Shown: positions 7,185 through 57,288 of the stretch, piece by piece
Position numbering within the stretch: the stretch's first letter is position 1
Layout: the number at the start of each line of letters is the position of its first letter
Assembly (NCBI GenBank): GCA_016178015.1
Contig: JACOUB010000058.1
Coordinates: 17,395 to 81,394, forward strand
Source: Methylocystis sp.
Lineage (GTDB): Bacteria > Pseudomonadota > Alphaproteobacteria > Rhizobiales > Beijerinckiaceae
Direction of reading: 5' to 3'
DNA: 64,000 nucleotides
Position numbers and translations under genes: made by a program
The notes under the pieces: generated by a model
Seen by the model: only the letters and a program-made list of their open reading frames with translations
What the model was told of the DNA's origin: nothing
Databases searched by the model: none

Positions 7185-9083
<1,899 letters not shown>

Positions 9084-9118
9084 CTACTGACGCTTCGAGC
9101 TATCGAGCGACTGCCGCG

Positions 9119-9206
9119 TTGGCCTTCCCTTCGCCGGCATGACCCGGATCAGGTTCGATGGGTGCTTCTCAGCCGCTCTCGTTGAGCGGCGCCCCTCGCC
9201 ATTCAA
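9119..9206 (-). ncRNA. TPP (thi-box) riboswitch
   Basis: Minus strand reads GGCTGAGAAGCACCCATCGAACCTGATCCGGGTCATGCCGGCGAAGGGA, directly upstream of thiC. Confidence 0.95.
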
Positions 9207-40206: not shown

Positions 40207-40737
40207 ATGACCGTCGCAACGGACATTTCGGTCGCCGCTCCCGCCTGGGAGCAGCTCGCTGGGCTCGACGCGCTGACACAGCGCGCCGTGGAGCAATGCC
40301 TTGCAACGACGGGCGCAACGCTCGCGCCGGAATGCGAGCTCAGCGTGGTTTTCTGCGACGATGCGCTGATCCGCGCGCTCAACGCGCAATGGCGCGGCGT
40401 TGACCGGCCGACCAACGCGCTCGCTTTTCCGACGCCGGGCGACCTCGCCGCAAAGCCGGCGCTCGGCGACATCGTCATCGCCTATGAAACGCTGGAGCGC
40501 GAGGCGCGCCAACAGGACAAGACCATCACGGCGCATCTCACCCATTTGCTCATCCATGCATTTCTGCATCTAATCGGCTACGATCACGAAACCGCGCCAA
40601 GGGCCGAGGCGATGGAGGCGATCGAGCGGCGCGTTATGGCGGCGCTCGGTCGGCCGGACCCCTATGAGGGGACACAACCGATCGGCGACGACGCTGACCC
40701 AAACGGACGTATTGACGCCAATGCCCATGAAGCATGA
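40207..40737 (+). CDS. ybeY: rRNA maturation endoribonuclease YbeY
   Basis: LNAQWRG.D.PTN.L.F, LGDIVIA, HAFLHLIGYDH. Confidence 0.94.
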   Translation: MTVATDISVAAPAWEQLAGLDALTQRAVEQCLATTGATLAPECELSVVFCDDALIRALNAQWRGVDRPTNALAFPTPGDLAAKPALGDIVIAYETLEREARQQDKTITAHLTHLLIHAFLHLIGYDHETAPRAEAMEAIERRVMAALGRPDPYEGTQPIGDDADPNGRIDANAHEA

Positions 40738-41746
40738 GAACGACGCGGCGCCGGCCGGCGTCGAAAGTTTGAGCGAGCCGCAACGGCCTGGGCTCATCGA
40801 GCGTTTGCGCGCGCTCATCGGCCTCGAACCCGCTTCGGTGCGCGAGGATATCGAAGAGGCGCTGGAGGAGGCGACGGGCGACGTCACCCCTCAAGAGCGG
40901 ACGCTGCTGAAAAACGTCCTCGCCCTGCACGACCTGCGCGTCGCCGACGCCATGGTGCCGCGCGCGGCGATCGTCGCGGTCCGCCAGGACGCGACGCTCG
41001 GCGAAGTTCTGGCGGTGTTCCGCAACGCCGAACATTCGCGCCTGCCCGTCTACGGCGACACGCTCGACGATGCGCGCGGCATGGTCCATATTCGCGATTT
41101 CGTCGATTATCTCGCCTCGCGCGCCGAATGCGCCCAGGCGCCGGCCGCCACTGAGCAGAAGGCGCAACAAGGCGACGCCGCAACGGCAAGCGCAACAGAG
41201 CGCGCGCACGCCATTTCGCTGGCGGCGATCGATTTCCGGGCGCCGCTGGCCTCGACCGGCGTGCTCAGGCCCGTGCTGTTCGTGCCGCCGTCGATGCCAG
41301 CGCTCGATCTTCTCGTGAAGATGCAAGCGGCGCGCACGCATATGGCGCTGGTTATCGACGAATACGGCGGCACGCACGGCCTCGTCTCGATCGAGGACAT
41401 CGTCGAAATGATCGTCGGCGACATTGAGGACGAGCACGACGTGGGCGACGAACCGAGGATAGAGGCTGGCGACGACGGCTCGTTCCTTATCGACGCCAAG
41501 GCCAATCTCGAGGACGTGCACAAAGCGCTGGGCGCCGATTTTACGCTAAATGAAACCATTGCCGACGTGACGACGCTCGGCGGGCTGGTGGCCTCGCTGG
41601 CCGGACATGTTCCCGTGCGCGGCGAGATCGTGCAGGCGCCTATCGCGGGCTGGGAGTTCGAGATTCTCGAAGCGGATCCGCGTCGCGTCTCCCGCCTGCG
41701 CGTCCACGCGCCAGGAAAGGATGAGCCTGGCGACGCCCGCCCCTGA
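40721..41746 (+). CDS. corC: CorC/HlyC-family CBS-domain protein
   Basis: HSRLPVY, HMALVIDEYGGT.GLVSIED, GDIEDEHD. Confidence 0.92.
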   Translation: MPMKHENDAAPAGVESLSEPQRPGLIERLRALIGLEPASVREDIEEALEEATGDVTPQERTLLKNVLALHDLRVADAMVPRAAIVAVRQDATLGEVLAVFRNAEHSRLPVYGDTLDDARGMVHIRDFVDYLASRAECAQAPAATEQKAQQGDAATASATERAHAISLAAIDFRAPLASTGVLRPVLFVPPSMPALDLLVKMQAARTHMALVIDEYGGTHGLVSIEDIVEMIVGDIEDEHDVGDEPRIEAGDDGSFLIDAKANLEDVHKALGADFTLNETIADVTTLGGLVASLAGHVPVRGEIVQAPIAGWEFEILEADPRRVSRLRVHAPGKDEPGDARP

Positions 41747-41801: not shown

Positions 41802-43436
41802 TCAATATTTAACTGTCGTGCGCAACCCAAAAACCGCGGCGTCGCGGATGCGCCTTACGGCGAGGCTTGCGGGATCGATGGCGCCGCCGCCGGGATGGAA
41901 AATATATTGAAAATCCGGCTGAACGATCCACCCGGGAATAACCTGCGCCTGATAAGCGAGCTCGAGCGCAACTTCATCGTCGCGGATCGGAGAAGCGGTT
42001 TGGGCAAAAAAAGCGTTATCGCGATCGAGCCCTCGCAGCGACGACGAAATCTCCGAATAGGCCGCCGCCAAGCCAAATGCGTCGTCTGGCCTCGCGTCCA
42101 AAAGGCCCATGAAGTTGACGCCCCCCTCGGCATAAAAATCAATCATATTGCGGTCCGACGGACTTGCCGACAGCCGCGCGAAAACCCCGGCGCCCTTCTT
42201 GGGGGCGTCTGCGGACGCACGCCAGATCATCTGATCAATCACGCCATAAACGCCCCAATCGCCGCGATGCGGCAAAGGAACGCCATTGCTCGACGGATCG
42301 GCGAGCGAAAGAGCGTCTGTGCCGAAACGCTGATCGTCGAACCTGCTGAAATGGCGCCATACGCCGAGCTTGATGGTCCCGGCAAGGCCTGACGAGCTGT
42401 TGTCCTGATTGTGCTTGACTTGTGCTTCCCCGATCACGAATGGCGGATCCTTGAGTCGGAAATTAATTCCCGCCGGGTCCTTGAACTCCTGCAATCCCGT
42501 GAAGCGCGCCCCCGAAGGATCGCCGTTGAACGCGGCGGCGAGAAGGGTGATTTGATCATTCGGGCTCACTTTGAGACGCACGCCGGGCGTCGCCAGCGGG
42601 TAGGCCGGGCCGCCGCTCGGCAAATCTGCCGAGGTTATGTTGGGCCAGCCGAACGTCCCGTTGACATACAAGGCGCCGAGTTCGCTGATGAAGAATTCGG
42701 CATCGGCGGCCAACTGACCAACACGGATCGACGCTGCGTCGCCAAAAAGTTTCTGTTCAAGCCAGGCGTCGAACAGCCGCGTCGTCGCCCGCGCCTCGAT
42801 GCTGCTGATCGTCGAGAAGTTGAAAATGCAACAGGTGGAGAGACCCCGGCCGTGGATTTGATAGGCGTCGATGTGAAACGAGGCGCCGGTCAAACCGGCG
42901 ATCTTGTCGAGATCGCCGTCGACCGCCATTTCGAGCAGACCCTCGTAAATCGCGCCCCGCTTGACGCCGCCGCTGGGGTTGCCGAAGACCTCGCCGGTAT
43001 AATTGACTTGCAAATTGAAGCCGCGATCGAGCAGCGCCTTCTTGAAGTCCCCCAGCGCGGGAACGCTGGAGGAGATCGAGGGCTGCTCGCTTGCCGGCGC
43101 CGCTATGGATTCGCTTACATGCGCTGGCGAGGTCAACACGACCCGTTCTTCGCCGGTGAAGGTCCTGGTGCTCGACGACGTCACGGGCGCCGGCGCCAGC
43201 GCCGGAGCGGGTCGAGCGGCGCGAACCGGGGTTGGGCGTTGCGGCTTTGCAGTCCCGACCGTTCGTTTCGCTTTTGCAGCCCCGACCTCGATTTTCGGCA
43301 ACGGCGCCTGCGCGAGCGCCGCGGATGAAACGAGCGTCGCGACCAACGCGAACGCTCTCGCGCTCCGCAGGAGATTGAAACTCGGCACACGGGAACGCGG
43401 GCCGCTACTTACGGCTCTCGAGATCGGGGACTGCAT
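41802..43436 (-). CDS. OprB-family (carbohydrate-selective type) porin with an unusual N-terminal extension
   Basis: YTGEVFGNPSGG, SIRVGQLAADAEF, GWP...SADLPSGGPAYP..TPG, VQPDFQYIFHPGG, terminal GLRTTVKY. Confidence 0.92.
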   Translation of the reverse strand: MQSPISRAVSSGPRSRVPSFNLLRSARAFALVATLVSSAALAQAPLPKIEVGAAKAKRTVGTAKPQRPTPVRAARPAPALAPAPVTSSSTRTFTGEERVVLTSPAHVSESIAAPASEQPSISSSVPALGDFKKALLDRGFNLQVNYTGEVFGNPSGGVKRGAIYEGLLEMAVDGDLDKIAGLTGASFHIDAYQIHGRGLSTCCIFNFSTISSIEARATTRLFDAWLEQKLFGDAASIRVGQLAADAEFFISELGALYVNGTFGWPNITSADLPSGGPAYPLATPGVRLKVSPNDQITLLAAAFNGDPSGARFTGLQEFKDPAGINFRLKDPPFVIGEAQVKHNQDNSSSGLAGTIKLGVWRHFSRFDDQRFGTDALSLADPSSNGVPLPHRGDWGVYGVIDQMIWRASADAPKKGAGVFARLSASPSDRNMIDFYAEGGVNFMGLLDARPDDAFGLAAAYSEISSSLRGLDRDNAFFAQTASPIRDDEVALELAYQAQVIPGWIVQPDFQYIFHPGGGAIDPASLAVRRIRDAAVFGLRTTVKY

Positions 43437-43564
43437 GCAAGGACTCGCAGCAAACGTGGGCCGTCACTGCGAAGGGTCTCTGCCCACCCGGCGGCGATGA
43501 CGCCCGGCATGGGTTTCGGCCGCCTCGGTGCACCCCGCCCGACGCTTTCGCGCGTGACCACGAA

Positions 43565-43745
43565 CGATGGCAGGTCTCCTGGCTCGCGGGTCGTCGCCTC
43601 GGACCGCCTTCCCAGGAACGCGCTCGTCCCAGTGGCCTATCGGTCATCGGCTGGCCGCTCACAGTTGCGGGGGCAGCTGCGGCATCGCGCGCATCGAAGC
43701 GCTCACCGCATTCCCATTTGATCCCTTAAAGGGAACCATCGTTTC
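43565..43745 (-). ncRNA. Cobalamin (AdoCbl-type) riboswitch
   Basis: Minus strand: GGTTCC...GGGAATGCGGTG...GCCGCAGCTGCCCCCGCAACTGTGAGCGG...GCCACTGGGA...CTGGGAAGGC...GCGAGCCAGGAGACCTGCCATC. Confidence 0.95.
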
Positions 43746-43868
43746 CATTTGACACGCTGATCGCCTAATGGTCAAGGCGCCGGCGCACGATTGGCCAAGC
43801 GTCAAACGGCCACTAGGGCATAGCGCGCAAACTGGCTAAAGTCGAAGCCGCTGATTCGACGGTGGTCC

Positions 43869-45527
43869 ATGGCGCAAACAACCACGACTTTCGAGCGCGC
43901 CGGCCGCTGGCCGGGTTTATCGCTGGCCCAGCGCGTCATCCTCAGCGAGGGCTGGACGCGCCGCGCCATCGCCTGTTGTGCCGGCGCAATCGGCGCGCTG
44001 GCGCTGGCGCCGGTGGATTTCGCGCCGGCGATGCTCGCGCCGATGTGCGCAGCGGTGTGGCTCATTGACGGCTCGGCGACGGCGACGCATGGCGGCGGCT
44101 CGGGTTTTATGCGCGCCTCGGCGGCGTCCGCCGCCGCGGCCGGTTGGTGGCTCGGCTTCGGCTATTTTCTCGCCGGGCTGTGGTGGCTTGGCGCGGCGCT
44201 GCTGGTCGAGGCGGATCAATTCGCATGGGCGCTGCCGCTCGCCGTGCTCGGCGTCCCCGCGGGGCTGGCGGTTTTCACCAGCCTCGGCTTCGCCTTGGCG
44301 CGGCTCTTATGGTCGTCCGGTTCGCTGCGCGTCTTTGCGCTCGCCGCGGGCCTCGGCGCATCCGAATGGCTGCGCGGCCATCTCCTCACCGGCTTTCCCT
44401 GGAACGACTTCGGCATGGCCCTGGCGGGGCCTCTCGTCTTCGCCCAAGCGGGGGCGCTCATCGGTCTTTATGGACTGGATGTCTTGGCGATCATCGTCTT
44501 CGCGGCGCCCGCGACGCTCGTCAACGCCGCCGCGCCGCGCCGGTTCGTCACGCCGGCGCTGGCGGCGGCGCTGGCGGTTCTGGTTGCTTTGACGCTCTTC
44601 GGGGCGTTGCGGCTCAGCCGTGGCGAGACCGAATTCGTCGACGGGGTGCGGCTGCGCCTGATGCAACCGAACTTGCCGCCGGACGCCAAATTCAAAGCGG
44701 CGAACGGCCCCGACATCGTGCGCCATTATCTCGCCCTCTCGGATCGGGCGACGACGCCGGAACGCGCCGGCGTGGCGGACGCAACGCATCTCGTTTGGCC
44801 CGAGTCGGCCTTCCCCTTCGTGCTGTCGCGCGAGCCGCAGGCGCTTGCCCAGATCGCCCGAGTTCTGCAAGGAAAAACGCTCATCACCGGGGCGGCGCGC
44901 GTCGAAGAAGCCCGCTTCGCCGGCGCCGGCGCAACGCAACGCACGAAAATCTACAACTCGATCGAAGTTGTGCAGGGCGGCAAGATCGTCGCCGCCTATG
45001 ACAAGATTCATCTGGTTCCGTTCGGCGAATATCTGCCGCTCGCCTCGTTGTTGGGCCCGCTCGGCGTCAACCATCTTGTTCCCGGCGTCTGGGACGAAGG
45101 CAGAGGGGCGCGGCGGCTGATCGCGCCCGGCCTGCCGCCGATGGCGCCGCTCGTCTGCTACGAAGCGATCTTTCCCGGCGAGGCGGCCCCGCCGGATGCG
45201 GACAACGCTCGCCCGCAACTGCTGCTCAACGTCACCAACGACGGCTGGTTCGGCAGGACGAGCGGTCCATACCAGCATCTGGCGCAGGCAAGGCTACGGG
45301 CGATCGAAGAGGGTCTGCCGCTGGTGCGCGCCGCCAACACCGGAATCTCGGCGCTCGTCGACCCTTATGGCCGAATTCTGGAGCAATTGCCGCTGGGCGT
45401 CGAAGGCGTCCTGGATGGCCGGCTCGCCAAGGCGCTGCCGGCGACGCCCTTCTCGACGCATCCAAATTTGTGGCCATTAGCTCTTTGGTTCGCCGCCGCC
45501 ATGCTCGCGGCTGCGGGTCGCCGTTAG
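43869..45527 (+). CDS. lnt: Apolipoprotein N-acyltransferase
   Basis: GFPWN, VWPESA, YDK.HLVPFGEYLP, CYEAIFP, NVTNDGWFG, RAANTGIS. Confidence 0.97.
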   Translation: MAQTTTTFERAGRWPGLSLAQRVILSEGWTRRAIACCAGAIGALALAPVDFAPAMLAPMCAAVWLIDGSATATHGGGSGFMRASAASAAAAGWWLGFGYFLAGLWWLGAALLVEADQFAWALPLAVLGVPAGLAVFTSLGFALARLLWSSGSLRVFALAAGLGASEWLRGHLLTGFPWNDFGMALAGPLVFAQAGALIGLYGLDVLAIIVFAAPATLVNAAAPRRFVTPALAAALAVLVALTLFGALRLSRGETEFVDGVRLRLMQPNLPPDAKFKAANGPDIVRHYLALSDRATTPERAGVADATHLVWPESAFPFVLSREPQALAQIARVLQGKTLITGAARVEEARFAGAGATQRTKIYNSIEVVQGGKIVAAYDKIHLVPFGEYLPLASLLGPLGVNHLVPGVWDEGRGARRLIAPGLPPMAPLVCYEAIFPGEAAPPDADNARPQLLLNVTNDGWFGRTSGPYQHLAQARLRAIEEGLPLVRAANTGISALVDPYGRILEQLPLGVEGVLDGRLAKALPATPFSTHPNLWPLALWFAAAMLAAAGRR

Positions 45528-48391: not shown

Positions 48392-49231
48392 CTAGCAAAA
48401 ATCCGAATATCCGCCGAGCTTAATGTCGGAGCGCCGGGCGGCGGCGATCACGGCCGCCGACGTCAACGCGGCAAGCTCGTCGGCATAGCGGTAGCCCGGG
48501 GCGTGCCCTTCGAAATCGTCCCGCGTCGCGGGATGCGTGTAAATTTCTGTCCAGCCCTCGGGAAGGCGATCGAGCAGACCCGCGAACCGCGGCGCGGTCA
48601 TAGCGCCGGACCAGGCGAGGCCGAAGACGGCGTCAGGACTCCGCAACCCAGCGCGACGCGCGCGGCGAGCGAGCAGACTGGCCCATGGCGCGGTCAGCCA
48701 GTCCGAACCTGGCGGCGTTTGCGGGTCCGCGTCGACGAGCGTCGAGCGAGTTTCGATTGGCGCACGCAATCCGCGCAGCCCATGGCGGCGGCCGACCGCG
48801 ATGATGGCGCCGGCGACCGTCGGATGAAGATGAAAATGCTTGTGAGCGTTGACGTGATCGAGCGGGAGATTGGTTGCGCGGAACGCCTCGAATTGCGCCT
48901 CGATCTCGGCCGCGAGCTGCCGCCGCGCCGACGGGTGCGCGAAGATATCAAACCCAAGCCCCGCCATATCGCTCCGAAATCGGCCGCTGGCGTCGACAAG
49001 GCGGGGCAGCCGCTCCGGCGGCAACACCGGGCAACCCTCAACCAGCACCACATGCAATCCGACGCGCAAGTGCGGCAAGCGCCGCGCCCGTTCGACCGCG
49101 TCCCTAGCTGCGCCGCCCGAGACCATCAGGCTCGCCGCCGCAAGGATGCCGTCCTTGTGTGCAATCTCGACGGCCTGGTTGACCTCCGGCGCCAGCCCGA
49201 AATCATCGGCCGTGACGACGAGACGCTTCAG
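48392..49231 (-). CDS. hpnK: Hopanoid biosynthesis-associated deacetylase; probable CTG start
   Basis: KRLVVTADDFGL, GLHVVL, DHVNAHKHFHLHP, EIYTHP. Confidence 0.9.
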   Translation of the reverse strand: MKRLVVTADDFGLAPEVNQAVEIAHKDGILAAASLMVSGGAARDAVERARRLPHLRVGLHVVLVEGCPVLPPERLPRLVDASGRFRSDMAGLGFDIFAHPSARRQLAAEIEAQFEAFRATNLPLDHVNAHKHFHLHPTVAGAIIAVGRRHGLRGLRAPIETRSTLVDADPQTPPGSDWLTAPWASLLARRARRAGLRSPDAVFGLAWSGAMTAPRFAGLLDRLPEGWTEIYTHPATRDDFEGHAPGYRYADELAALTSAAVIAAARRSDIKLGGYSDFC

Positions 49232-50658
49232 AGCGCAGTCTCCCTCCGCTCGCGCAAGAATTGGAAGAACTCCAAGCCCTCGCGCAAACGACGCTTCATC
49301 ATTTCGGGAGATCGCGCCATTTCGCTGACGAAGGCCGCGATCTTGGGCGCGCGAAAATAGAACCGCCGGTAGAATTGCTCGACCGATTGGAAAATTTCGG
49401 TATGGCTGAGGTGCGGATAGCTGATCGGCGCGATCTGGCTGCCATCCGCATTGACCAACTCGGCATTGCTGAGATCGAGCCAGCCGTTCTCCAACGCCTG
49501 ACGATGCAGATGCGTCCCGGGATAGGGCGCGGCGAGCGAAATCTGTATGGTATGCGGATTGATCTCGGTGGCGAAACGGATGGTTTCTTCAATCGTCTCC
49601 GTTGTCTCGCCCGGCAGGCCGAGAATGAACGTGCCGTGGATCGTAATCCCAAGCTCGTGGCAATCCTTGGTGAAGCGCTTTGCCACCTCGACGCGCATGC
49701 CCTTCTTGATGTTGTGCAGGATCTGCTGGTTGCCGGATTCGTAGCCGACGACGAACAGCCGCAGCCCATTGTCCCGCATCACCTTCAAGGTCGAGAGGGG
49801 CACGTTGCCCTTGGCGTTGCATGACCACATGACGCCGAGCTTTCCGATCGCGCGTGCGAGCTGTTCGACGCGCGGCAAATCGTCAGTCAGCGTGTCGTCG
49901 TCGAAGAAGAACTCCCGGACCTGCGGAAACGCCTTCTTCGCCCAACCCAGCTCCTCGATCACGTGACCAACGCTGCGCGTGCGGTACTGATGACCGCCGA
50001 CCGTCTGCGGCCACAGGCAGAAGGTGCAGTGTGATTTGCAGCCGCGTCCAGTGTAGAACGACAGGTAGGGGTGCCGGAGATAGCCGCTGAAATAATTCTC
50101 GATGACGAGGTCGCGCTTATACACCGGCGACACGAACGGCAGCTCATCCATGTTGTGCAGGATTTCGCGATCATCGTTGTGTGCGATACGACCATCCGGC
50201 GCACGGTAGGACAAGCCTGCGACGCGACCGAGTTCGCGGCCTTCCGCCACCTCCTTGATGGCGAAGTCGAACTCGTTCCGCGCCACGAAATCTATATCTT
50301 CGCAAGCCTGAAGGCTGCCGGTCGGATCGACGGCGACCTTGGCGCCGATCAGACCGATCATGAGATTGGGATTGAGTTCTTTCAGGGCGCGGACGGTCCT
50401 GACGTCGGACGAAAACGAGGGGGTGGAGGTGTGCAGAACGATGAGATCGCGGTTGCGCGCCTCCGACGCGATATCAGCAAACTTCAGATTGTGCGGCGGC
50501 GCGTCGATCAGTTTGGAGCCTTCGACCAGCGCCGCCGGCTGCGCCAGCCAGGTCGGGTACCAGAATGAGCGAATCTCGCGGCGATTCTGATAGCGCGCGC
50601 CGGCGCCGCCGTCGAAGCCTTCGAATGAAGGCGCTTGCAAGAACAATGTCCTCATCAT
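49228..50658 (-). CDS. hpnJ: Hopanoid biosynthesis-associated radical SAM protein
   Basis: RTLFLQAPSF.GFDGGAG.RYQ, GRGCKSHCTFCLWPQT. Confidence 0.94.
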   Translation of the reverse strand: MMRTLFLQAPSFEGFDGGAGARYQNRREIRSFWYPTWLAQPAALVEGSKLIDAPPHNLKFADIASEARNRDLIVLHTSTPSFSSDVRTVRALKELNPNLMIGLIGAKVAVDPTGSLQACEDIDFVARNEFDFAIKEVAEGRELGRVAGLSYRAPDGRIAHNDDREILHNMDELPFVSPVYKRDLVIENYFSGYLRHPYLSFYTGRGCKSHCTFCLWPQTVGGHQYRTRSVGHVIEELGWAKKAFPQVREFFFDDDTLTDDLPRVEQLARAIGKLGVMWSCNAKGNVPLSTLKVMRDNGLRLFVVGYESGNQQILHNIKKGMRVEVAKRFTKDCHELGITIHGTFILGLPGETTETIEETIRFATEINPHTIQISLAAPYPGTHLHRQALENGWLDLSNAELVNADGSQIAPISYPHLSHTEIFQSVEQFYRRFYFRAPKIAAFVSEMARSPEMMKRRLREGLEFFQFLRERRETAL

Positions 50659-51806
50659 GGCTGGGACGACCTCCGTTGCGACATTAGCGCGCCTTCGGAC
50701 GCCAGGCGATAACGGCGTCCTTTCCAATCCACGTCTCGGGCGAAAAATCCCGCAATGAAGACCGCGACCGACAATAGATCACGGAATGGAATGAGCCAAT
50801 AGGGATGCGCTGGCAAGCGCCAGCTGCGCTCGACGGCGATGAGCAGCGCGACGCGGCAGGCCAAGGCGGCAAGCGTCAGAGCCAGCGCGGGCAAGCCGCC
50901 GCCGAACAGCAGGGCGGCCAAGGCCAGCGGGAACGCGTGGGTGAGCGCCGAGCCGGCGTAGCCCAGGGGATCGATCATCCGGATGGTCATGGCCCACCGC
51001 AGTTCGTGGCGCCACAATTCACGGCAGGAAGTTTCGTTGCAACTGTGCCCGACGGCAAACGGCAACACCGCAATTGGTTCGCCGCGCTTGCGCAAAGCCT
51101 CGCACAGCGCGTAGTCGTCCGCGAGGCAATCGGCCACCGCCTCGAAACCGCCGATGGCGGCGAGCGACGTGCTGCGCAGCGCGATAGTCGAGCCGAAACA
51201 CGGCTGCGCGAGCTTGCAGCGCACGCCGACGATGACGTTCGGCAGAAAATGATTGTCGATCGCAAGCCGCGCGAGCTGCGACCACACATTTCCTGTGGGA
51301 ATCCCGAAATAGGGGCAGGTCACGGCGCCGGCGCCGGATTGTTCGAGCGCGCTCACGACGCGCGCAAGATAATCGGGCTCGACTCGGATATCGGCGTCGG
51401 CGAGCACGATGATTTCGTGCCGCACGCGCGAACTCATGTTGATCAGGTTAGCGACCTTTGGATTTGAGCCTGCGATATGCGCGTTAACGACGAGTTCGAG
51501 CCGGCGGCCGGGAAATGCGGACCGCAGCCGCTCGACCACGCGGACCGCGGGATCATGCGGGTTGGTCACGCCGAAGATAATTTGGACCTCTCCCGGGTAA
51601 TCCTGATTGCAGAACGAGGCGAGGTTGTCGAACAGGCTCGGCTCGTCGCCGTGCAGCGGCTTGAGGATGCTCACCGCCGACCTGGCAATGCGAGCCGGTC
51701 GCTCGCGCCGGGCGAACGAGGGCATGAAGACTATCGCAACCATCATGAAGAGACAGCCGAACGCGCCGGCTGCGAAAAACACAAGCGATAGAGTCACCCA
51801 GATCAT
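50655..51806 (-). CDS. hpnI: Bacteriohopanetetrol glucosamine biosynthesis glycosyltransferase
   Basis: SILKPLHG, NPKVANL, DADI, LADDY, HELRWA.TIR; upstream of hpnJ. Confidence 0.92.
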   Translation of the reverse strand: MIWVTLSLVFFAAGAFGCLFMMVAIVFMPSFARRERPARIARSAVSILKPLHGDEPSLFDNLASFCNQDYPGEVQIIFGVTNPHDPAVRVVERLRSAFPGRRLELVVNAHIAGSNPKVANLINMSSRVRHEIIVLADADIRVEPDYLARVVSALEQSGAGAVTCPYFGIPTGNVWSQLARLAIDNHFLPNVIVGVRCKLAQPCFGSTIALRSTSLAAIGGFEAVADCLADDYALCEALRKRGEPIAVLPFAVGHSCNETSCRELWRHELRWAMTIRMIDPLGYAGSALTHAFPLALAALLFGGGLPALALTLAALACRVALLIAVERSWRLPAHPYWLIPFRDLLSVAVFIAGFFARDVDWKGRRYRLASEGALMSQRRSSQP

Positions 51807-51812
51807 CGCCTG

Positions 51813-52820
51813 TCACGCCCGCTCGTTTTCGTTGCCGCTCGCGCTGGGCGCGCTGAAGAAACGCCGGCCCTCCATCGCCTGCCAAGCGATGAGGCCCGGC
51901 GCCCCGAGCACGAGATCGGGAATGCGCTTGACTAGCGAAAGCGCAAGCGCCGCCTCCGGCGGCGCGCCGTAGAGAGCGCACAAGACAATCAGCCCGCCTT
52001 CCTGCACGCCGAGCGCGCCAGGAACGGCGAAAGCAGCGCCGCGCGCCGCGTGCATCAGGCTCTCGATGACCACCGCCTGTTCGTAGCTGACCGGGTAACC
52101 CATGAAGGAGAGCGCGATCCAAACTTCGGCGGCGCCGACGAACCAAACGGCAAGGTGCACGCTCCAACCCGGCAACAGGCCGTCGTGGTAAGAATAAAAT
52201 ACCTTGAACCGGGCGAACAGATCGTCGATCTCGCCGACGGCGAGCCATTTGCGATCGCTGGCGAAGAACGAGAGCAGCTTCTTCAGGATCCGCTGTCCGC
52301 CCGCGCCCTGCGCGATGAAGAAGCCGCCCAATGCCGGGACAGCGACGGCAATGCCGGTCGCGATCGGCCATGCCGCCAATTCATTGCCGCCGCTGGCAAC
52401 CAGCAGGAGGACGCCGACGACGGCGAACACAAGCTGGGTCGTGGCCTGCGCCAGGACATCGACGATGACGCTGGCCGCCGCGACAGTTCCCTTGGCGCCG
52501 CACAAAGCGAGGCAGCGCGCGCCGATGAAATCGCCTCCGATCTGCGCCAGCGGCAGGAGCGCGTTCGTCGCCTCACGAATGAACCGAATCAGCACGCAAT
52601 TCCAGCCAGCGGGCCGCAGTGCGCGCGGGAACAGCAGCCACCAGCCGACCCCCGCACCGAATACCGCGACGGCGCGGGCGAGTACGACGAGAAAAGTTCC
52701 CCAGCCGACACTGACGACCGCTTGGCCGACAAGGCCAGCGCCGGCCCAAACCGTCAACCCGACGAAAGCGGCGATCCCGATGAACCACAGAATAAGAGTG
52801 AATCGCTTACCGATGGCCAT
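51813..52820 (-). CDS. hpnL: HpnL-like / lysylphosphatidylglycerol-synthase-TM-domain membrane protein
   Basis: IREATNALLPLAQIGG, AFAVPGALGVQEGG, ALALSLVKR; first gene of the hpnIJK operon. Confidence 0.75.
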   Translation of the reverse strand: MAIGKRFTLILWFIGIAAFVGLTVWAGAGLVGQAVVSVGWGTFLVVLARAVAVFGAGVGWWLLFPRALRPAGWNCVLIRFIREATNALLPLAQIGGDFIGARCLALCGAKGTVAAASVIVDVLAQATTQLVFAVVGVLLLVASGGNELAAWPIATGIAVAVPALGGFFIAQGAGGQRILKKLLSFFASDRKWLAVGEIDDLFARFKVFYSYHDGLLPGWSVHLAVWFVGAAEVWIALSFMGYPVSYEQAVVIESLMHAARGAAFAVPGALGVQEGGLIVLCALYGAPPEAALALSLVKRIPDLVLGAPGLIAWQAMEGRRFFSAPSASGNENERA

Positions 52821-53607
52821 TTTTTGAACACCAAGCAGCAGTCGAGAAAAAACGACGGACAAGTGAGCGGAGGCGGGATCGGCGCCGACGCTCGTCGAAG
52901 CCGCACAACGGGCGAAGGGCCAAGGAGGGGGACTTCGTAAAGCCTGAGGATTTTCGTTGCCTTCGATCAAGTCCTCGGGTCGCTGTGCAAGGGAGTGTGA
53001 GAGTTTTTTTCGTTTCGAATCCAAACGAGACGTCAACTTATGGTCTTCGGCCATCGAAGGCGCCTGCGCGAAAGCGCCTGCGTCGAACAGCCGTGGGGAC
53101 GGCTGCGCCGCGGCTCTCGCGTCCGCGCATGGAAAGCGGCTATCGAGTTTGCCATTGCAGTCATGACTGGCGCGCAATTCCTGAAAAGGCCCCGACCGAT
53201 TTTAGGTAATTGCACGCTTTTTCCCTCCGATCAACCTATCGGTTGTCACGTTGCTCTTAACGGCGCGAAAGTAGCGGCGCTATTTTTCAGACAGTTGGCA
53301 CAAAGGGCGATTGCTCATGACCTGAGAAATTGCTCTTAACGTGCAAATTCCTGGCTGGGAAAGTTGCACGGAATTTTTTCTTGGAAACGACAGACGACGA
53401 AAATTGGAATGAAGCTCGCCGGCGAGCGGCGGTCATCGACCTCACTTTGCCCAACACGGCTGAGTCACGCCGATTGACCGTTAAAGGGTCACTGCACGAT
53501 TTGGGCAAAATCGTGGACGCCCGGCGACGATGGTCGCCGCAGCATAGAGCGCGCTCATTGCTGCGCCGAGCGCATGTTGGACGATGGCGCCTCTTGGTGA
53601 AGTAAAC

Positions 53608-55652: not shown

Positions 55653-55994
55653 ATGGCTGCCCGCAACCCACTCCTCGCCGCACCGCCGTATCAGGTTGAG
55701 CAGGCATTAAAGACGCTCGGCGCCAACCTGCGCACGGCGCGGTTACGTCGAAACCTGTCAATCGAGGACATCGCCGCGAAGATCGGCGTCGGCCGTCACG
55801 TGGTGGCGGATGCCGAGAAGGGAAAACCATCGACGGGCATCGCCATCTATGCCGGGCTGCTTTGGGCTTTCGGTCTGACCGAGCAACTGGCGCGCATCGC
55901 CGACCCCGATGCGGATGAGGAAGGTCGCCTGCTGGCGAAACGAAGCGAGCGGGTTCATGCGCGTAGCGCAAAGGCGCTCGACAATGACTTCTAA
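55653..55994 (+). CDS. XRE-HTH protein (HipB-like antitoxin)
   Basis: LGANLRTARLRRNLS.ED.A.K.GV, overlaps the hipA start. Confidence 0.88.
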   Translation: MAARNPLLAAPPYQVEQALKTLGANLRTARLRRNLSIEDIAAKIGVGRHVVADAEKGKPSTGIAIYAGLLWAFGLTEQLARIADPDADEEGRLLAKRSERVHARSAKALDNDF

Positions 55995-57261
55995 GACGCG
56001 CGGCGCCACCGAGTGCTTCGTCTACATGACGCTGCCGGGAGAGACTGAGGCGGTCACGGCCGGCAGGTTCGAACTCGCCACCAGCCGGCAAGGCGTGGTG
56101 ACGGGACGGTTCGTCTATGGGCGGAGCTATCTCGCCCGCCCGAATGCCGCGGAGATCGACCCCGTCGAACTAAAGCTCGGCTCGCGCACTTATGAGACGG
56201 TCTTGATGAAAGGCGTGTTCGGGGCCCTGCGCGACGCCGGTCCCGACTATTGGGGGCGGCGCGTCATTGAGAAGCACGCCGGGCTCCCCGAGTTTGGGGA
56301 ACTCGATTACCTGCTCCACTCGCCCGACGATCGCGCCGGTGCGCTGAGCTTCGGCCTCAACCAAACGCCGCCGGCGTCGATGCGCCGGTTCAATCAGACG
56401 ATCGATCTTGAGAAGCTCCAGGTGCTCGCGGACGCGCTCGTCCGCGATGAGCCTCCCGCGCCGGGCGTGGGTGCGGCAGACCTTGCGCAGGCGGAAGACC
56501 TGCTCCTCGTCGGCACCTCCATGGGTGGCGCTCGTCCGAAAGTCGTCGTCGAGGATGCCGAGGGTCTTTGGCTCGCCAAATTCAACCGACCCGACGACAA
56601 GTGGAACGTGGCGCGCGTCGAGCACACGATGCTAACGCTCGGCCAGGCCTGTGGCCTCACCACGGCCGAAAGTCGTGTCGCCGCCATCGGCGATCGTGAG
56701 GTCCTGCTCGTTAAGCGATTTGACCGAGAGAAGGCGCCGGGCGGCTATTTAAGGGCCCGCATGGTGAGCGCGCTCACCATGCTGCGCGCCGATGACAGTC
56801 TGCAATCCCGCGAGCGCTGGTCCTACATCCGGCTAGCCGAAGAATTGCGCCGCATCAGCGCCGACCCGAAGCGTGACGCCGCCGAGCTCTTCCGCCGCAT
56901 GTGCTTCAACGCCTTGATCTCGAACATCGACGACCATCCCCGCAACCACGCGGTTATCGCGCCGGATCGGGATTGGCGCCTGTCGCCTGCTTATGACCTG
57001 ACACCTTCTTCGCCGGTCAGCATCGAGCGACGCGATCTCGCCATGGCTTGCGGAGACCTGGGCCGATATGCGAACGCCGGCAACCTCATGAGCCAGGCCG
57101 CGCGCTTCCTTCTATCAACGGATCAAGCGGCTTGCATCGTCGATGACTTGGAAGCACGGGTTCGCTCGACGTGGTACGAAGTCGCGCGCGAATGTGGCGT
57201 GAGCGACGCCGATTGCGCTCAGATCGCAGGAGCCTTCACTTATCCTGGGTTCAGAGCTTGA
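55984..57261 (+). CDS. HipA-family Ser/Thr kinase toxin
   Basis: GTSMGGARPK, WLAKF, LLVKRFDR, NIDDHPRNH, RLSPAYDL. Confidence 0.93.
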   Translation: MTSKTRGATECFVYMTLPGETEAVTAGRFELATSRQGVVTGRFVYGRSYLARPNAAEIDPVELKLGSRTYETVLMKGVFGALRDAGPDYWGRRVIEKHAGLPEFGELDYLLHSPDDRAGALSFGLNQTPPASMRRFNQTIDLEKLQVLADALVRDEPPAPGVGAADLAQAEDLLLVGTSMGGARPKVVVEDAEGLWLAKFNRPDDKWNVARVEHTMLTLGQACGLTTAESRVAAIGDREVLLVKRFDREKAPGGYLRARMVSALTMLRADDSLQSRERWSYIRLAEELRRISADPKRDAAELFRRMCFNALISNIDDHPRNHAVIAPDRDWRLSPAYDLTPSSPVSIERRDLAMACGDLGRYANAGNLMSQAARFLLSTDQAACIVDDLEARVRSTWYEVARECGVSDADCAQIAGAFTYPGFRA

Positions 57262-57288
57262 AAGAACGACAAAGCCGGAGGATCTGTA

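What the first reader, a model, noticed from the sequence alone, without database searches (positions are those of the whole stretch)
41802..43745. Cobalamin riboswitch controlling an OprB-family porin, inserted antisense between corC and lnt
Seen: a complete cobalamin riboswitch about 130 bp upstream of a single gene encoding an OprB-type barrel, with no btuB, btuFCD, cbi/cob or NiCoT gene in the unit. It interrupts the usually contiguous ybeY-corC-lnt run. Known: these riboswitches repress B12 or cobalt uptake and synthesis genes, and B12 itself normally needs TonB-dependent BtuB; OprB porins are described for sugars and, in cyanobacteria, iron. Inference: a candidate B12-repressed outer-membrane channel for cobalt or a small corrinoid precursor.
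Basis: partly seen in the sequence, partly recalled or inferred. Interest (0 to 1): 0.8.

Follow-up and report, generated by a model that had tools for sequence, protein, structure and literature searches.

The report
B12 riboswitch controlling an outer-membrane porin
A vitamin-B12-sensing RNA switch sits directly in front of a lone outer-membrane pore gene, and the same pairing recurs in several related soil and groundwater bacteria, once beside a B12-controlled cobalt importer, so this pore is a good candidate for the unknown route by which cobalt crosses the outer membrane.

Summary
A full-length cobalamin riboswitch (RF00174, 133 bits, 43552-43755, minus strand) lies 115 nt upstream of a single-gene unit. 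That gene encodes a 544-aa OprB-family 16-strand barrel (41802-43436). The unit is inserted antisense between corC and lnt, which abut in 62 of 66 related genomes.

The pairing is not a one-strain relic. A roughly 94%-identical strain from another study keeps it. Rfam-confirmed riboswitch-OprB pairs also occur in Beijerinckia sp. L45, a Rhodoplanes MAG, another alphaproteobacterial MAG and several metagenome contigs.

The riboswitch-linked porins fall in three separate OprB clades, and each clade has closer relatives without a riboswitch. The window and Beijerinckia share a homologous promoter, aptamer and leader that ends at the same ATG, although their proteins are only about 50% identical. 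The switch therefore behaves like a portable regulatory cassette.

In one genome the riboswitch-OprB unit sits next to a second riboswitch that controls a DUF4198-CbiM cobalt importer.

Best reading: a B12-repressed outer-membrane channel, most probably for Co2+, analogous to the Mn2+ channel MnoP. B12 regulation is likely. The substrate is only inferred. I found no published report of this pairing.

The parts
43747..43775 (-). Candidate sigma-70-type promoter: TTGACC (43775-43770), 17-nt spacer, TCAAAT (43752-43747), just upstream of the first aptamer helix (P1).
   Evidence: Read from the sequence. The -35 TTGAC is conserved in the aligned Beijerinckia L45 and L202 loci. The consensus scan did not call it because the -10 lacks A at position 2. 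Inferred.
43552..43755 (-). Cobalamin riboswitch aptamer (RF00174), full length, including the long peripheral extension of helix P6.
   Evidence: cmscan 133.4 bits, E 2.2e-33, model 1-189 of 189.
43437..43551 (-). Leader and expression platform (115 nt) between the aptamer and the start codon. It has no intrinsic terminator.
   Evidence: No terminator-like site in the leader. It is homologous to the leaders of L174 and L202 up to the shared ATG. The single-sequence fold is no better than shuffles, z -0.43.
43523..43544 (-). Leader hairpin 1: CGUCGG / CCGAGG arms around a loop containing GGGCGGGGUG.
   Evidence: The motif GGGCGGGGUG follows the aptamer in the window, L174, L202, L155, L160a, L194, L198, L196 and L136. 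It also follows the aptamer in L019, an unrelated riboswitch in front of a BLUF gene. It is therefore a general feature of these alphaproteobacterial riboswitches. The pairing was read by eye.
43446..43471 (-). Leader hairpin 2 (CGCAGUGA ... UUGCUGCG, loop CGGCCCACGU). It ends 9 nt before the AUG and is the candidate structure that sequesters the translation start.
   Evidence: RNAalifold predicts this helix in all three orthologous leaders, with every pair kept. In one register A-U becomes G-C in L174 and L202. Its function is inferred.
41802..43436 (-). OprB-family porin gene, 544 aa. Signal peptide about residues 1-42 (ALA|QA, judged by eye), disordered Pro/Ala-rich linker to about residue 112, short helix, then a 16-strand barrel at residues 140-543.
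   Evidence: Pfam PF04966 at 310 bits. AF2 model pLDDT 73 overall with most barrel blocks at about 80 or above, 16 strands. Foldseek best hit 4GEY, E 1.4e-30, TMt 0.82. The ATG position is conserved with L174 and L202. GC3 is 0.72 against about 0.8 in neighbours.
40664..41746 (+). corC-like gene (CBS + CorC_HlyC), the left boundary of the insert, convergent with the porin gene.
   Evidence: Pfam and NCBIfam.
43869..45527 (+). lnt (apolipoprotein N-acyltransferase), the right boundary of the insert, divergent from the riboswitch promoter.
   Evidence: TIGR00546 at 310 bits.

Best explanation
The locus is a self-contained unit made of a promoter, an adenosylcobalamin-type riboswitch, a leader and a single OprB-family outer-membrane channel gene.

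How it most likely works: when the cell has enough B12, the coenzyme binds the aptamer. The leader then folds so that the start region just downstream of hairpin 2 is unavailable, possibly with Rho-dependent termination as a consequence, and the porin is not made. When B12 is scarce, the porin is made.

The porin's most likely job is to raise the outer membrane's permeability to Co2+, so that inner-membrane cobalt importers and the B12 pathway are supplied. This would be the cobalt counterpart of the Mn2+ channel MnoP.

What is shown: the riboswitch, the porin fold, the single-gene architecture, the recurrence of the pairing and the conservation of the leader. What is inferred: that B12 represses the gene (my estimate about 0.85), that control is translational (about 0.6), and that cobalt is the substrate (about 0.45).
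For: 1. The aptamer is full length and high scoring, on the same strand as the gene and 115 nt upstream.

2. The pairing recurs. RF00174 lies directly upstream of OprB genes in L174 (Beijerinckia sp. L45), L155 (Rhodoplanes MAG), L160, L194 and L198. Profile nhmmer finds it in L199, L201 and L202 as well. Three of the 80 OprB loci drawn from species-representative genomes carry it. About 0.16 would be expected if roughly 0.2% of genes are riboswitch-controlled, giving binomial P of about 6e-4. That calculation is rough and the loci are not fully independent.

3. In the L155 clade the pair is kept down to 62% protein identity and sits at different genomic sites.

4. The window, L174 and L202 share a homologous promoter -35, aptamer and leader ending at the same ATG: 72.8% identity over 312 nt. 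Their proteins are only about 50% identical.

5. The riboswitch-linked porins sit in three separate clades of the OprB tree. This points to repeated recruitment rather than a single accident.

6. In L160 the unit is followed immediately by a second riboswitch controlling DUF4198, CbiM and then CbiL/CbiQ-like reading frames.

7. In L196 the same leader cassette drives a different small outer-membrane barrel, of the Phenol_MetA_deg type. This favours a small solute or an ion as substrate.

8. Literature: MnoP, the Mn2+ channel of Bradyrhizobium, is reported to carry an OprB-type domain (PMC4827864). A Fur-box OprB porin precedes feoAB in Geobacter (PMC545781). No cobalt-specific outer-membrane protein has been confirmed (PMC7689651).

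9. A strain about 94% identical from another groundwater study keeps the OprB-leader-riboswitch-lnt order.

10. Metatranscriptome contigs contain the L174-type riboswitch and leader.
Against: - There are no expression or transport data at all.
- The window's own closest OprB relatives (74%, 69% and 70% identity) have no riboswitch, nor do the syntenic orthologues of L174 (L188, L203-L206) or a 99.5%-identical paralogue of L160. The link is therefore gained and lost easily.
- Only one of the loci has a cobalt transporter next to it.
- The riboswitch-linked porins share no signature residues. The Cys-Cys pair in the window's protein is specific to its clade.
- The Shine-Dalgarno sequence before the ATG is weak, and the single-sequence fold of the leader is no better than shuffled sequence.
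- The rest of the source genome was not available, so it is unknown whether this organism makes B12, has BtuB or has a cobalt importer.
- According to its abstract as I recall it, MnoP did not conduct Co2+, so OprB-type channels are not generic metal pores.
Confidence: 0.45

Rival explanations
1. The channel is B12-repressed but imports a small organic molecule of the B12 economy rather than the metal. Candidates are a lower-ligand base such as dimethylbenzimidazole, alpha-ribazole, aminopropanol, or a corrinoid such as cobinamide or B12 itself, which would bypass or replace BtuB.
For: Cobalamin riboswitches commonly control corrinoid and precursor transporters (PMC3766115). OprB of Pseudomonas is a channel for small organic solutes. 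All the recurrence evidence fits this reading as well as it fits cobalt.
Against: The barrel has 16 strands and is most like the glucose channel 4GEY. From general knowledge, a 1.3-kDa corrinoid needs a 22-strand TonB-dependent receptor. The only informative neighbour is a cobalt importer, not btuFCD. In L196 the same cassette drives a smaller barrel.
Confidence: 0.2
2. The riboswitch is functional but the link has no B12-specific transport meaning. A portable promoter-riboswitch-leader cassette has recombined in front of various outer-membrane barrel genes, and the result is neutral or only loosely adaptive, for example a general change in envelope permeability when B12 is low.
For: The distribution is patchy. 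Close orthologues and a 99.5%-identical paralogue lack the switch. In one relative an IS1595 element sits in its place. The same cassette is found on two barrel families. A metatranscriptome contig follows the L174-type leader to 11 nt before the ATG and then diverges.
Against: In every case seen the cassette landed on an outer-membrane channel, not on random genes. The pair is kept across 62-98% protein identity and across different genomic sites. The leader is conserved up to the ATG between genera.
Confidence: 0.15
3. The porin imports a nutrient that spares B12-dependent metabolism when B12 is missing, such as methionine. This is the same logic as riboswitch control of metE or of B12-independent ribonucleotide reductase.
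For: Isozymes and bypass functions are an established class of cobalamin-riboswitch targets (PMC3766115).
Against: No methionine or related transporter lies next to any of the pairs. The one informative neighbour is a cobalt importer. General porins already pass amino acids.
Confidence: 0.1
4. The gene is an ordinary carbohydrate porin, as annotated, and the riboswitch is an inactive relic left by a rearrangement.
For: Public sources name all homologues 'carbohydrate porin'. The gene has lower GC3 than its neighbours and sits at a junction that accepts inserts in other genomes.
Against: The aptamer scores 133 bits with every core element intact. A relative about 94% identical keeps it. The orthologous leaders are conserved to the ATG. 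A truly decaying copy looks different: the L136 riboswitch scores 70 bits and has a mutated core.
Confidence: 0.05

Closest known systems
btuB leader riboswitch controlling the TonB-dependent B12 receptor BtuB (E. coli, Salmonella)
   Same: A cobalamin riboswitch in the 5' leader of a single outer-membrane transport gene. Repression by B12 is expected, probably at translation initiation.
   Different: The regulated protein here is a 16-strand passive OprB-type channel with no plug domain and no TonB box. It is very unlikely to carry B12 itself.
MnoP, the Mn2+-selective outer-membrane channel of Bradyrhizobium japonicum (Hohle et al. 2011; classified in PMC4827864)
   Same: It is from the same order of alphaproteobacteria. 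It has an OprB-type barrel domain and is made only when its metal is scarce. It is the outer-membrane partner of an inner-membrane metal importer.
   Different: MnoP is a 675-aa fusion with an N-terminal BRP-family barrel, and it is controlled by a metal-sensing protein. Here the N-terminus is a disordered linker and the sensor is an RNA that reads the end product, B12, not the metal. MnoP reportedly did not pass Co2+ (from memory of the abstract).
Predicted cobalt TonB-dependent receptor with NiCoT and CobW behind a B12 riboswitch in Novosphingobium (reviewed in PMC7689651)
   Same: An outer-membrane protein placed under a B12 riboswitch and proposed to bring in cobalt. It too is unconfirmed.
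   Different: That is an energised 22-strand receptor within an operon with its inner-membrane partner. Here it is a passive porin on its own transcription unit.
OprB of Pseudomonas putida and P. aeruginosa (PDB 4GEY), the carbohydrate-selective porin
   Same: The same Pfam family and the same fold (E 1e-34 by sequence profile; TMt 0.82).
   Different: Only about 23% identity. Pseudomonas oprB is part of a glucose-uptake regulon, whereas no sugar genes are nearby here. This protein also has a long Pro/Ala-rich N-terminal linker.
Metal-linked OprB porins: the Fur-box OprB upstream of feoAB in Geobacter (PMC545781) and cyanobacterial SLH-OprB porins implicated in iron and ion uptake
   Same: OprB-family barrels tied by regulation or by phenotype to uptake of inorganic cations.
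   Different: Those involve iron rather than cobalt, protein regulators rather than a riboswitch, and in cyanobacteria an SLH anchoring domain that is absent here.

Membership tests
Cobalamin riboswitch (Rfam RF00174) | Covariance-model score above the curated gathering threshold, over the full model | tested here: met
   133.4 bits against 31.5, E 2.2e-33, model positions 1-189 of 189, no truncation.
Cobalamin riboswitch (Rfam RF00174) | Lies in the 5' leader, on the same strand as and just upstream of the regulated gene | tested here: met
   The aptamer ends 115 nt before the ATG of the porin gene on the minus strand. A candidate promoter lies just upstream.
Cobalamin riboswitch (Rfam RF00174) | An expression platform that links ligand binding to termination or to occlusion of the ribosome-binding site | tested here: inconclusive
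   No intrinsic terminator. A conserved hairpin ends 9 nt before the AUG and is kept in three orthologous leaders. The Shine-Dalgarno is weak and the single-sequence fold is not significant.
Cobalamin riboswitch (Rfam RF00174) | Binds a cobalamin and changes gene expression | not testable with these tools
   This needs in-line probing or ITC and reporter assays. No RNA run holds the window sequence.
OprB porin family (Pfam PF04966, TC 1.B.19) | Profile HMM match above the gathering score across the whole domain | tested here: met
   310 bits against 22.9, profile positions 1-371 of 372. PDB profile search hits 4GEY at E 1e-34.
OprB porin family (Pfam PF04966, TC 1.B.19) | 16-stranded beta-barrel fold | tested here: met
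   The AF2 model has 16 strands between residues 140 and 543. The best Foldseek hit is 4GEY, E 1.4e-30, TMt 0.82.
OprB porin family (Pfam PF04966, TC 1.B.19) | Secreted to the outer membrane (N-terminal signal peptide) | tested here: inconclusive
   The sequence LLRSARAFALVATLVSSAALA|QA looks like a Sec signal when read by eye. No signal-peptide predictor was available.
OprB porin family (Pfam PF04966, TC 1.B.19) | Carbohydrate selectivity | not testable with these tools
   No sugar-uptake genes nearby. The annotation 'carbohydrate porin' is carried over from homology only.
MnoP-type metal-limitation-induced outer-membrane channel | OprB-type barrel domain | tested here: met
   for this protein. 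PMC4827864 for MnoP.
MnoP-type metal-limitation-induced outer-membrane channel | Two-barrel fusion architecture (N-terminal BRP domain plus C-terminal OprB domain, 675 aa) | tested here: not met
   Residues 1-112 have no Pfam match and are predicted disordered. The protein is 544 aa.
MnoP-type metal-limitation-induced outer-membrane channel | Co-regulated with the cognate inner-membrane metal importer | tested here: inconclusive
   In L160 the riboswitch-OprB unit lies beside a riboswitch-DUF4198-CbiM unit, under the same class of sensor. No importer is visible in the window or in the other loci.
MnoP-type metal-limitation-induced outer-membrane channel | Conducts the specific metal ion | not testable with these tools
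   This needs proteoliposome or bilayer assays and uptake assays in a mutant.
BtuB / TonB-dependent B12 receptor | 22-strand barrel with plug domain and TonB box | tested here: not met
   Only the OprB domain is found. The model has 16 strands and no plug.

The most novel reading that the evidence does not exclude
Hyphomicrobiales carry portable B12-riboswitch cassettes, each made of a promoter, an aptamer and a leader that ends at the ATG. These cassettes have been grafted repeatedly onto different outer-membrane beta-barrels: three OprB clades and a Phenol_MetA_deg-type barrel. The barrels they control would be the first dedicated outer-membrane cobalt channels, the missing first step of cobalt acquisition for B12 synthesis, switched by the pathway's end product rather than by the metal.
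Probability: 0.35. Interest if true: 0.8.

Novelty: new variant of a known kind. Interest (0 to 1): 0.65.

Why it matters
How cobalt crosses the Gram-negative outer membrane is an acknowledged gap. A recent review states that no cobalt-specific outer-membrane protein has been confirmed (PMC7689651).

A porin whose synthesis is tied by a riboswitch to B12 status gives a concrete and testable candidate, and Beijerinckia sp. L45 is a cultured carrier of the pair.

If confirmed, it would extend two ideas. First, the MnoP idea that the outer membrane is a selective barrier for trace metals would apply to a second metal. Second, a new target class, passive porins, would join the cobalamin-riboswitch regulon. 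The regulon survey of 255 genomes mentions no outer-membrane or porin targets in its text or held supplements (PMC3766115).

The apparent mobility of the whole regulatory cassette between unrelated barrel genes is also an instructive case of how riboswitch regulons grow.

It also bears on annotation. 'Carbohydrate porin' is probably the wrong name for many alphaproteobacterial OprB homologues.

Tried and rejected
1. Nearest relatives. None of the 11 genome loci, 3 closest-homologue contigs or 13 metagenome loci had a riboswitch. This at first pointed to a strain-specific relic. I rejected that after the alignment-based scan of 80 loci and the follow-up of the two riboswitch-linked clades.

2. 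Exact 27-mer from the riboswitch core. It retrieved only unrelated riboswitches, in front of cbtA-cobW, cobU plus a periplasmic binding protein, and a BLUF gene. This says nothing about the origin of the window's switch.

3. Signs of transposition. No flanking direct or inverted repeats of note and no IS element around the insert.

4. Intrinsic terminators. None in the leader. The candidate hairpin between the convergent stop codons is no better than shuffles, z +0.86.

5. Single-sequence fold of the leader. Not significant, z -0.43.

6. A shared residue signature. The Cys-Cys pair in the window's protein is confined to its own clade, 7 of 99 sequences, so I rejected it as a marker of riboswitch-linked porins.

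7. Chimeric gene hypothesis. I considered a foreign N-terminus fused to the barrel. I rejected it because the N-terminal signal and linker align with those of P0002 and P0003 at protein level.

8. Expression data. No RNA run holds the window sequence. Metatranscriptome contigs exist only for the L174-type leader and cannot show regulation.

9. Literature. Full-text searches combining cobalamin or B12 riboswitch with OprB or porin returned nothing relevant. The MnoP paper and the 2003 B12-element paper were not held.

10. Source genome. It is not in the genome collection, and the protein as called in the database could not be located. The organism's B12 and cobalt gene content could not be checked.
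Full report
**1. What is there**

Rfam cmscan of the whole window gives two hits. One is a full-length cobalamin riboswitch at 43552-43755 on the minus strand (RF00174, 133.4 bits, E 2.2e-33, model positions 1-189 of 189). The other is an ordinary TPP riboswitch before thiC.

The cobalamin aptamer ends 115 nt upstream of the ATG at 43436, which starts a 544-aa ORF (41802-43436, minus strand). That protein matches Pfam OprB at 310 bits over residues 159-543. A profile of 60 homologues hits the P. putida OprB structure 4GEY at E 1e-34. An AlphaFold model has a disordered N-terminus (residues 1-112), a short helix and 16 strands between residues 140 and 543. Its best structural match is 4GEY (E 1.4e-30, target TM-score 0.82). 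By eye the N-terminus carries a Sec signal peptide (…AFALVATLVSSAALA|QA), followed by a Pro/Ala-rich linker.

The gene stands alone. corC (40664-41746, plus strand) converges on its 3' end, and lnt (43869-45527, plus strand) diverges from the riboswitch. Upstream of the aptamer lies a plausible promoter: TTGACC, 17 nt, TCAAAT, at 43775-43747.

The rest of the window is housekeeping chromosome: gltX, rpsD, thiC, the pyruvate dehydrogenase complex, nadABC, miaB-phoH-ybeY-corC, lnt and hopanoid genes. No cob, cbi, btu or NiCoT gene was found among about 40 proteins scanned. The spacing is 115 nt rather than about 130, and the aptamer extends 10 nt beyond the stated end.

**2. Is it an insertion, and is it real?**

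Of 80 lnt loci from other Hyphomicrobiales genomes, 66 have corC upstream. In 62 of these corC lies within 400 nt of lnt. Three carry unrelated inserts: a transglutaminase-like gene, an MFS transporter with HxlR, and a BLH phosphatase. None carries OprB or a riboswitch at this position. The junction therefore accepts foreign genes, and the riboswitch-porin unit is one such insert.

The porin gene has lower GC (0.59-0.62 against 0.65-0.70) and lower GC3 (0.72 against about 0.8) than its neighbours. No repeats or IS remnants flank it.

The sequence comes from groundwater metagenomes. One 8.4-kb contig spans the whole region with 2 mismatches. A second study holds contigs 92-95% identical that join OprB to the leader and riboswitch, and the riboswitch to lnt. 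The arrangement is therefore real and is kept in a related strain. By Lnt identity (70% at best), the organism is a Methylocystis/Methylosinus-like member of the Beijerinckiaceae-Methylocystaceae group without a close genome in the collection.

**3. Is the pairing a one-off?**

At first it looked so. The closest homologues of the porin (74%, 69% and 70% identity) have no riboswitch. Two of them sit among recombinase, methylase and AAA_25 genes. Eleven genome loci and 13 metagenome loci were also negative.

A wider alignment-based scan returned 80 OprB loci from species-representative genomes. A local nhmmer search found riboswitches directly upstream of the porin in three of them, and Rfam confirmed these at 109-111 bits, full length. 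They are L174 (Beijerinckia sp. L45), L155 (a Rhodoplanes MAG) and L160 (an uncultured alphaproteobacterium).

Following the two clades outward gave more cases:
- L194: porin 98% identical to L155, at a different genomic site.
- L198, L199 and L201: porin 62% identical to L155, with a divergent ZnuA gene upstream and a 127-nt insertion inside the aptamer.
- L202: porin 84% identical to L174, in the same synteny.

It also gave negatives:
- L195: porin 89% identical to L155, with an IS1595 transposase where the switch would be.
- L188 and L203-L206: syntenic orthologues of L174 with short intergenic regions and no switch.
- L159: a 99.5%-identical paralogue of the L160 porin in the same MAG, whose similarity begins about 36 nt inside the coding region.

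In a neighbour-joining tree of 99 OprB sequences, the riboswitch-linked porins fall in three separate places. They are 48-54% identical to each other, and each has closer relatives without a switch.

Three of 80 loci is far more than expected. If about 0.2% of genes are under a cobalamin riboswitch, about 0.16 would be expected (binomial P about 6e-4). This estimate is rough and the loci are not fully independent.

**4. The regulatory cassette**

The window and L174 align from the promoter -35 (TTGAC) through the aptamer and the whole leader to the same ATG, at 72.8% identity over 312 nt. L202 aligns over the same span. Similarity stops at the ATG, and the window and L174 proteins are about 50% identical.

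Two leader elements are conserved. The first is a hairpin whose loop holds GGGCGGGGUG (43544-43523). This motif also follows an unrelated alphaproteobacterial cobalamin riboswitch (L019), so it is a general feature and not specific to porins. The second is a hairpin, CGCAGUGA…UUGCUGCG, with the loop CGGCCCACGU (43471-43446), which ends 9 nt before the AUG. RNAalifold predicts this second helix in all three sequences with every pair kept. In one register A-U becomes G-C.

The leader has no intrinsic terminator. I therefore favour control at translation initiation, possibly followed by Rho-dependent termination. This is inference. The Shine-Dalgarno is weak, and the single-sequence fold is not better than shuffled sequence.

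The L155-type riboswitches have a longer leader of about 215 nt, with the same two hairpins. They also have a conserved upstream AUG and a GAAGGA Shine-Dalgarno before the porin's ATG. The same leader, down to …TTCAGCGAAGGAcCGC..CCATGAC, precedes a different outer-membrane barrel in L196, a 317-aa protein with a weak Phenol_MetA_deg match.

A wood-decay metatranscriptome contig follows the L174-type leader to 11 nt before the ATG and then diverges. Together these cases suggest that the promoter, riboswitch and leader behave as a module that has been recombined in front of different outer-membrane channel genes. In every case seen the target was an outer-membrane beta-barrel.

**5. What does the channel carry?**

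The switch logic says the porin is made when B12 is low. Three lines favour cobalt.

First, in L160 the riboswitch-porin unit is followed at once by a second riboswitch (125 bits). That switch controls a DUF4198 periplasmic protein, CbiM, and then reading frames resembling CbiL/NikL and CbiQ. This is an ECF-type cobalt importer.

Second, the barrels are small (16 strands, glucose-channel fold) and in one case smaller still. That suits ions or small solutes and does not suit a 1.3-kDa corrinoid.

Third, there are precedents in the literature:
- MnoP, the Mn2+ channel of Bradyrhizobium that is made under Mn limitation, is reported to have an OprB-type domain (PMC4827864).
- A Fur-box OprB porin precedes feoAB in Geobacter (PMC545781).
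- A review of cobalt supply for B12 states that cobalt is assumed to cross through porins or TonB-dependent receptors, and that no cobalt-specific outer-membrane protein has been confirmed (PMC7689651).

Several points count against this reading. Only one locus has a cobalt neighbour. The link is gained and lost easily. The linked porins share no signature residues. The window protein's Cys202-Cys203 pair is a feature of its clade only. The rest of this genome could not be examined. Rivals are a small organic B12 precursor, a B12-sparing nutrient, a loosely adaptive mobile cassette, or a dead relic. The last is unlikely, because a genuinely decaying copy looks quite different (L136: 70 bits, mutated core, wrong orientation).

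**6. Comparison with what is known**

The riboswitch is a member of RF00174 by every feature testable here. The protein is a member of the OprB family by sequence and by fold.

Functionally the unit works like the btuB leader, in that a B12 switch sits on a lone outer-membrane transporter gene. The protein is not a TonB-dependent receptor. It also works like MnoP, a channel induced by limitation that feeds an inner-membrane metal importer. It lacks MnoP's two-barrel architecture, and it is sensed through the pathway's end product by an RNA.

I found no paper linking a cobalamin riboswitch to OprB or to any porin. The regulon survey of 255 genomes mentions no porin or outer-membrane target in its text or in its held supplements.

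**7. Verdict**

B12-dependent control of an OprB-type channel is well supported by comparative evidence. Cobalt as the substrate is the best guess (about 0.45) but is unproven.

This is a new variant of a known kind: a known switch and a known protein family in a new and recurring regulatory pairing. It has a clear experimental path, because a cultured carrier exists. Interest 0.65.

Noticed in passing
L160:4595-7248: Immediately downstream of the riboswitch-OprB unit lies a second cobalamin riboswitch (125 bits). It precedes DUF4198, CbiM, and then frames resembling CbiL/NikL and CbiQ, which together make an ECF-type cobalt importer. The OprB gene in this nanopore-derived MAG shows two apparent frameshifts relative to L155, one of them in a T6 run. 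These may be sequencing errors.
   Followed up: partly
L196:2393-3846: The same riboswitch-plus-leader cassette as in the L155 clade drives a 317-aa protein with a weak Phenol_MetA_deg (outer-membrane barrel) match instead of OprB. An OprB gene lies 1 kb upstream at the contig edge, so its own leader is not visible.
   Followed up: partly
L136:4467-4673 (minus strand): A lower-scoring cobalamin riboswitch (70 bits) with a mutated core and an insertion lies on the opposite strand. It points into the 3' end of a Methylocella OprB gene, with only about 180 nt between them. It is either a decaying relic or a B12-controlled antisense transcript.
   Followed up: no
L155:1157-1298, L198:1400-1640: The long leader of the L155-type riboswitches holds a conserved AUG right after the second hairpin. 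In L198 this upstream reading frame ends in an ATGA overlap with the porin start, which suggests translational coupling. In L155 it is in frame with the porin.
   Followed up: no
L198:1240-1370: A roughly 127-nt insertion with internal inverted repeats sits inside the peripheral P6 extension of the aptamer. The rest of the riboswitch and leader stay conserved, and Rfam still scores it at 84 bits.
   Followed up: no
L195:1261-2472: In the 89%-identical relative of the L155 porin, an IS1595-family transposase occupies the place of the riboswitch. More transposases lie downstream.
   Followed up: no
L019:276-1667: A cobalamin riboswitch lies directly upstream of a 375-aa protein with an N-terminal BLUF (blue-light FAD sensor) domain. 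This is an unusual target for this riboswitch.
   Followed up: partly
window 42828-42833 (protein residues C202-C203): A vicinal cysteine pair (GLSTCCIFN) sits between the third and fourth barrel strands (residues 185-196 and 218-230). It is conserved only in the window's OprB clade, 7 of 99 sequences. Other clades have YN, YY or NN at these positions.
   Followed up: partly
L174:2655-2846 (run X10), L174:2568-2790 (run X8): Leaf-litter and wood-decay metatranscriptome contigs contain the L174-type riboswitch and leader. One follows the leader to 11 nt before the ATG and then continues into a different sequence (…AAACAAAAAATGAAAAGAGA). This suggests the same leader is attached to yet another gene.
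   Followed up: no
window 9108-9206 (minus strand) and 7185-9017 (minus strand): A TPP riboswitch (65 bits) lies in front of thiC. This is an ordinary arrangement.
   Followed up: yes
window 48392-53177 (minus strand): A YdjC-like gene, a radical-SAM gene and a family-21 glycosyltransferase gene lie in a row, resembling the hopanoid side-chain genes hpnK, hpnJ and hpnI. A gene with an LPG_synthase_TM domain follows.
   Followed up: partly
window 55909-59943 (plus strand): A HipA-like kinase gene is followed by a gene for an 884-aa AAA_13/SMC-like ATPase. This may be a toxin or defence islet.
   Followed up: no
L053:4300-7000, L064:4990-7000, L096:1960-4000: Three other genomes carry unrelated inserts at the same corC-lnt junction: a transglutaminase-like gene, an MFS transporter with an HxlR regulator, and a BLH phosphatase. 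The junction therefore tolerates insertions.
   Followed up: partly
L174, L202, L203-L206 (upstream of the porin): The L174-type porin always sits after an AI-2E family transporter gene and a divergent siroheme synthase (CysG-like) gene. Only L174 and L202 have the roughly 415-nt intergenic region that holds the riboswitch. The others have 93-132 nt.
   Followed up: partly
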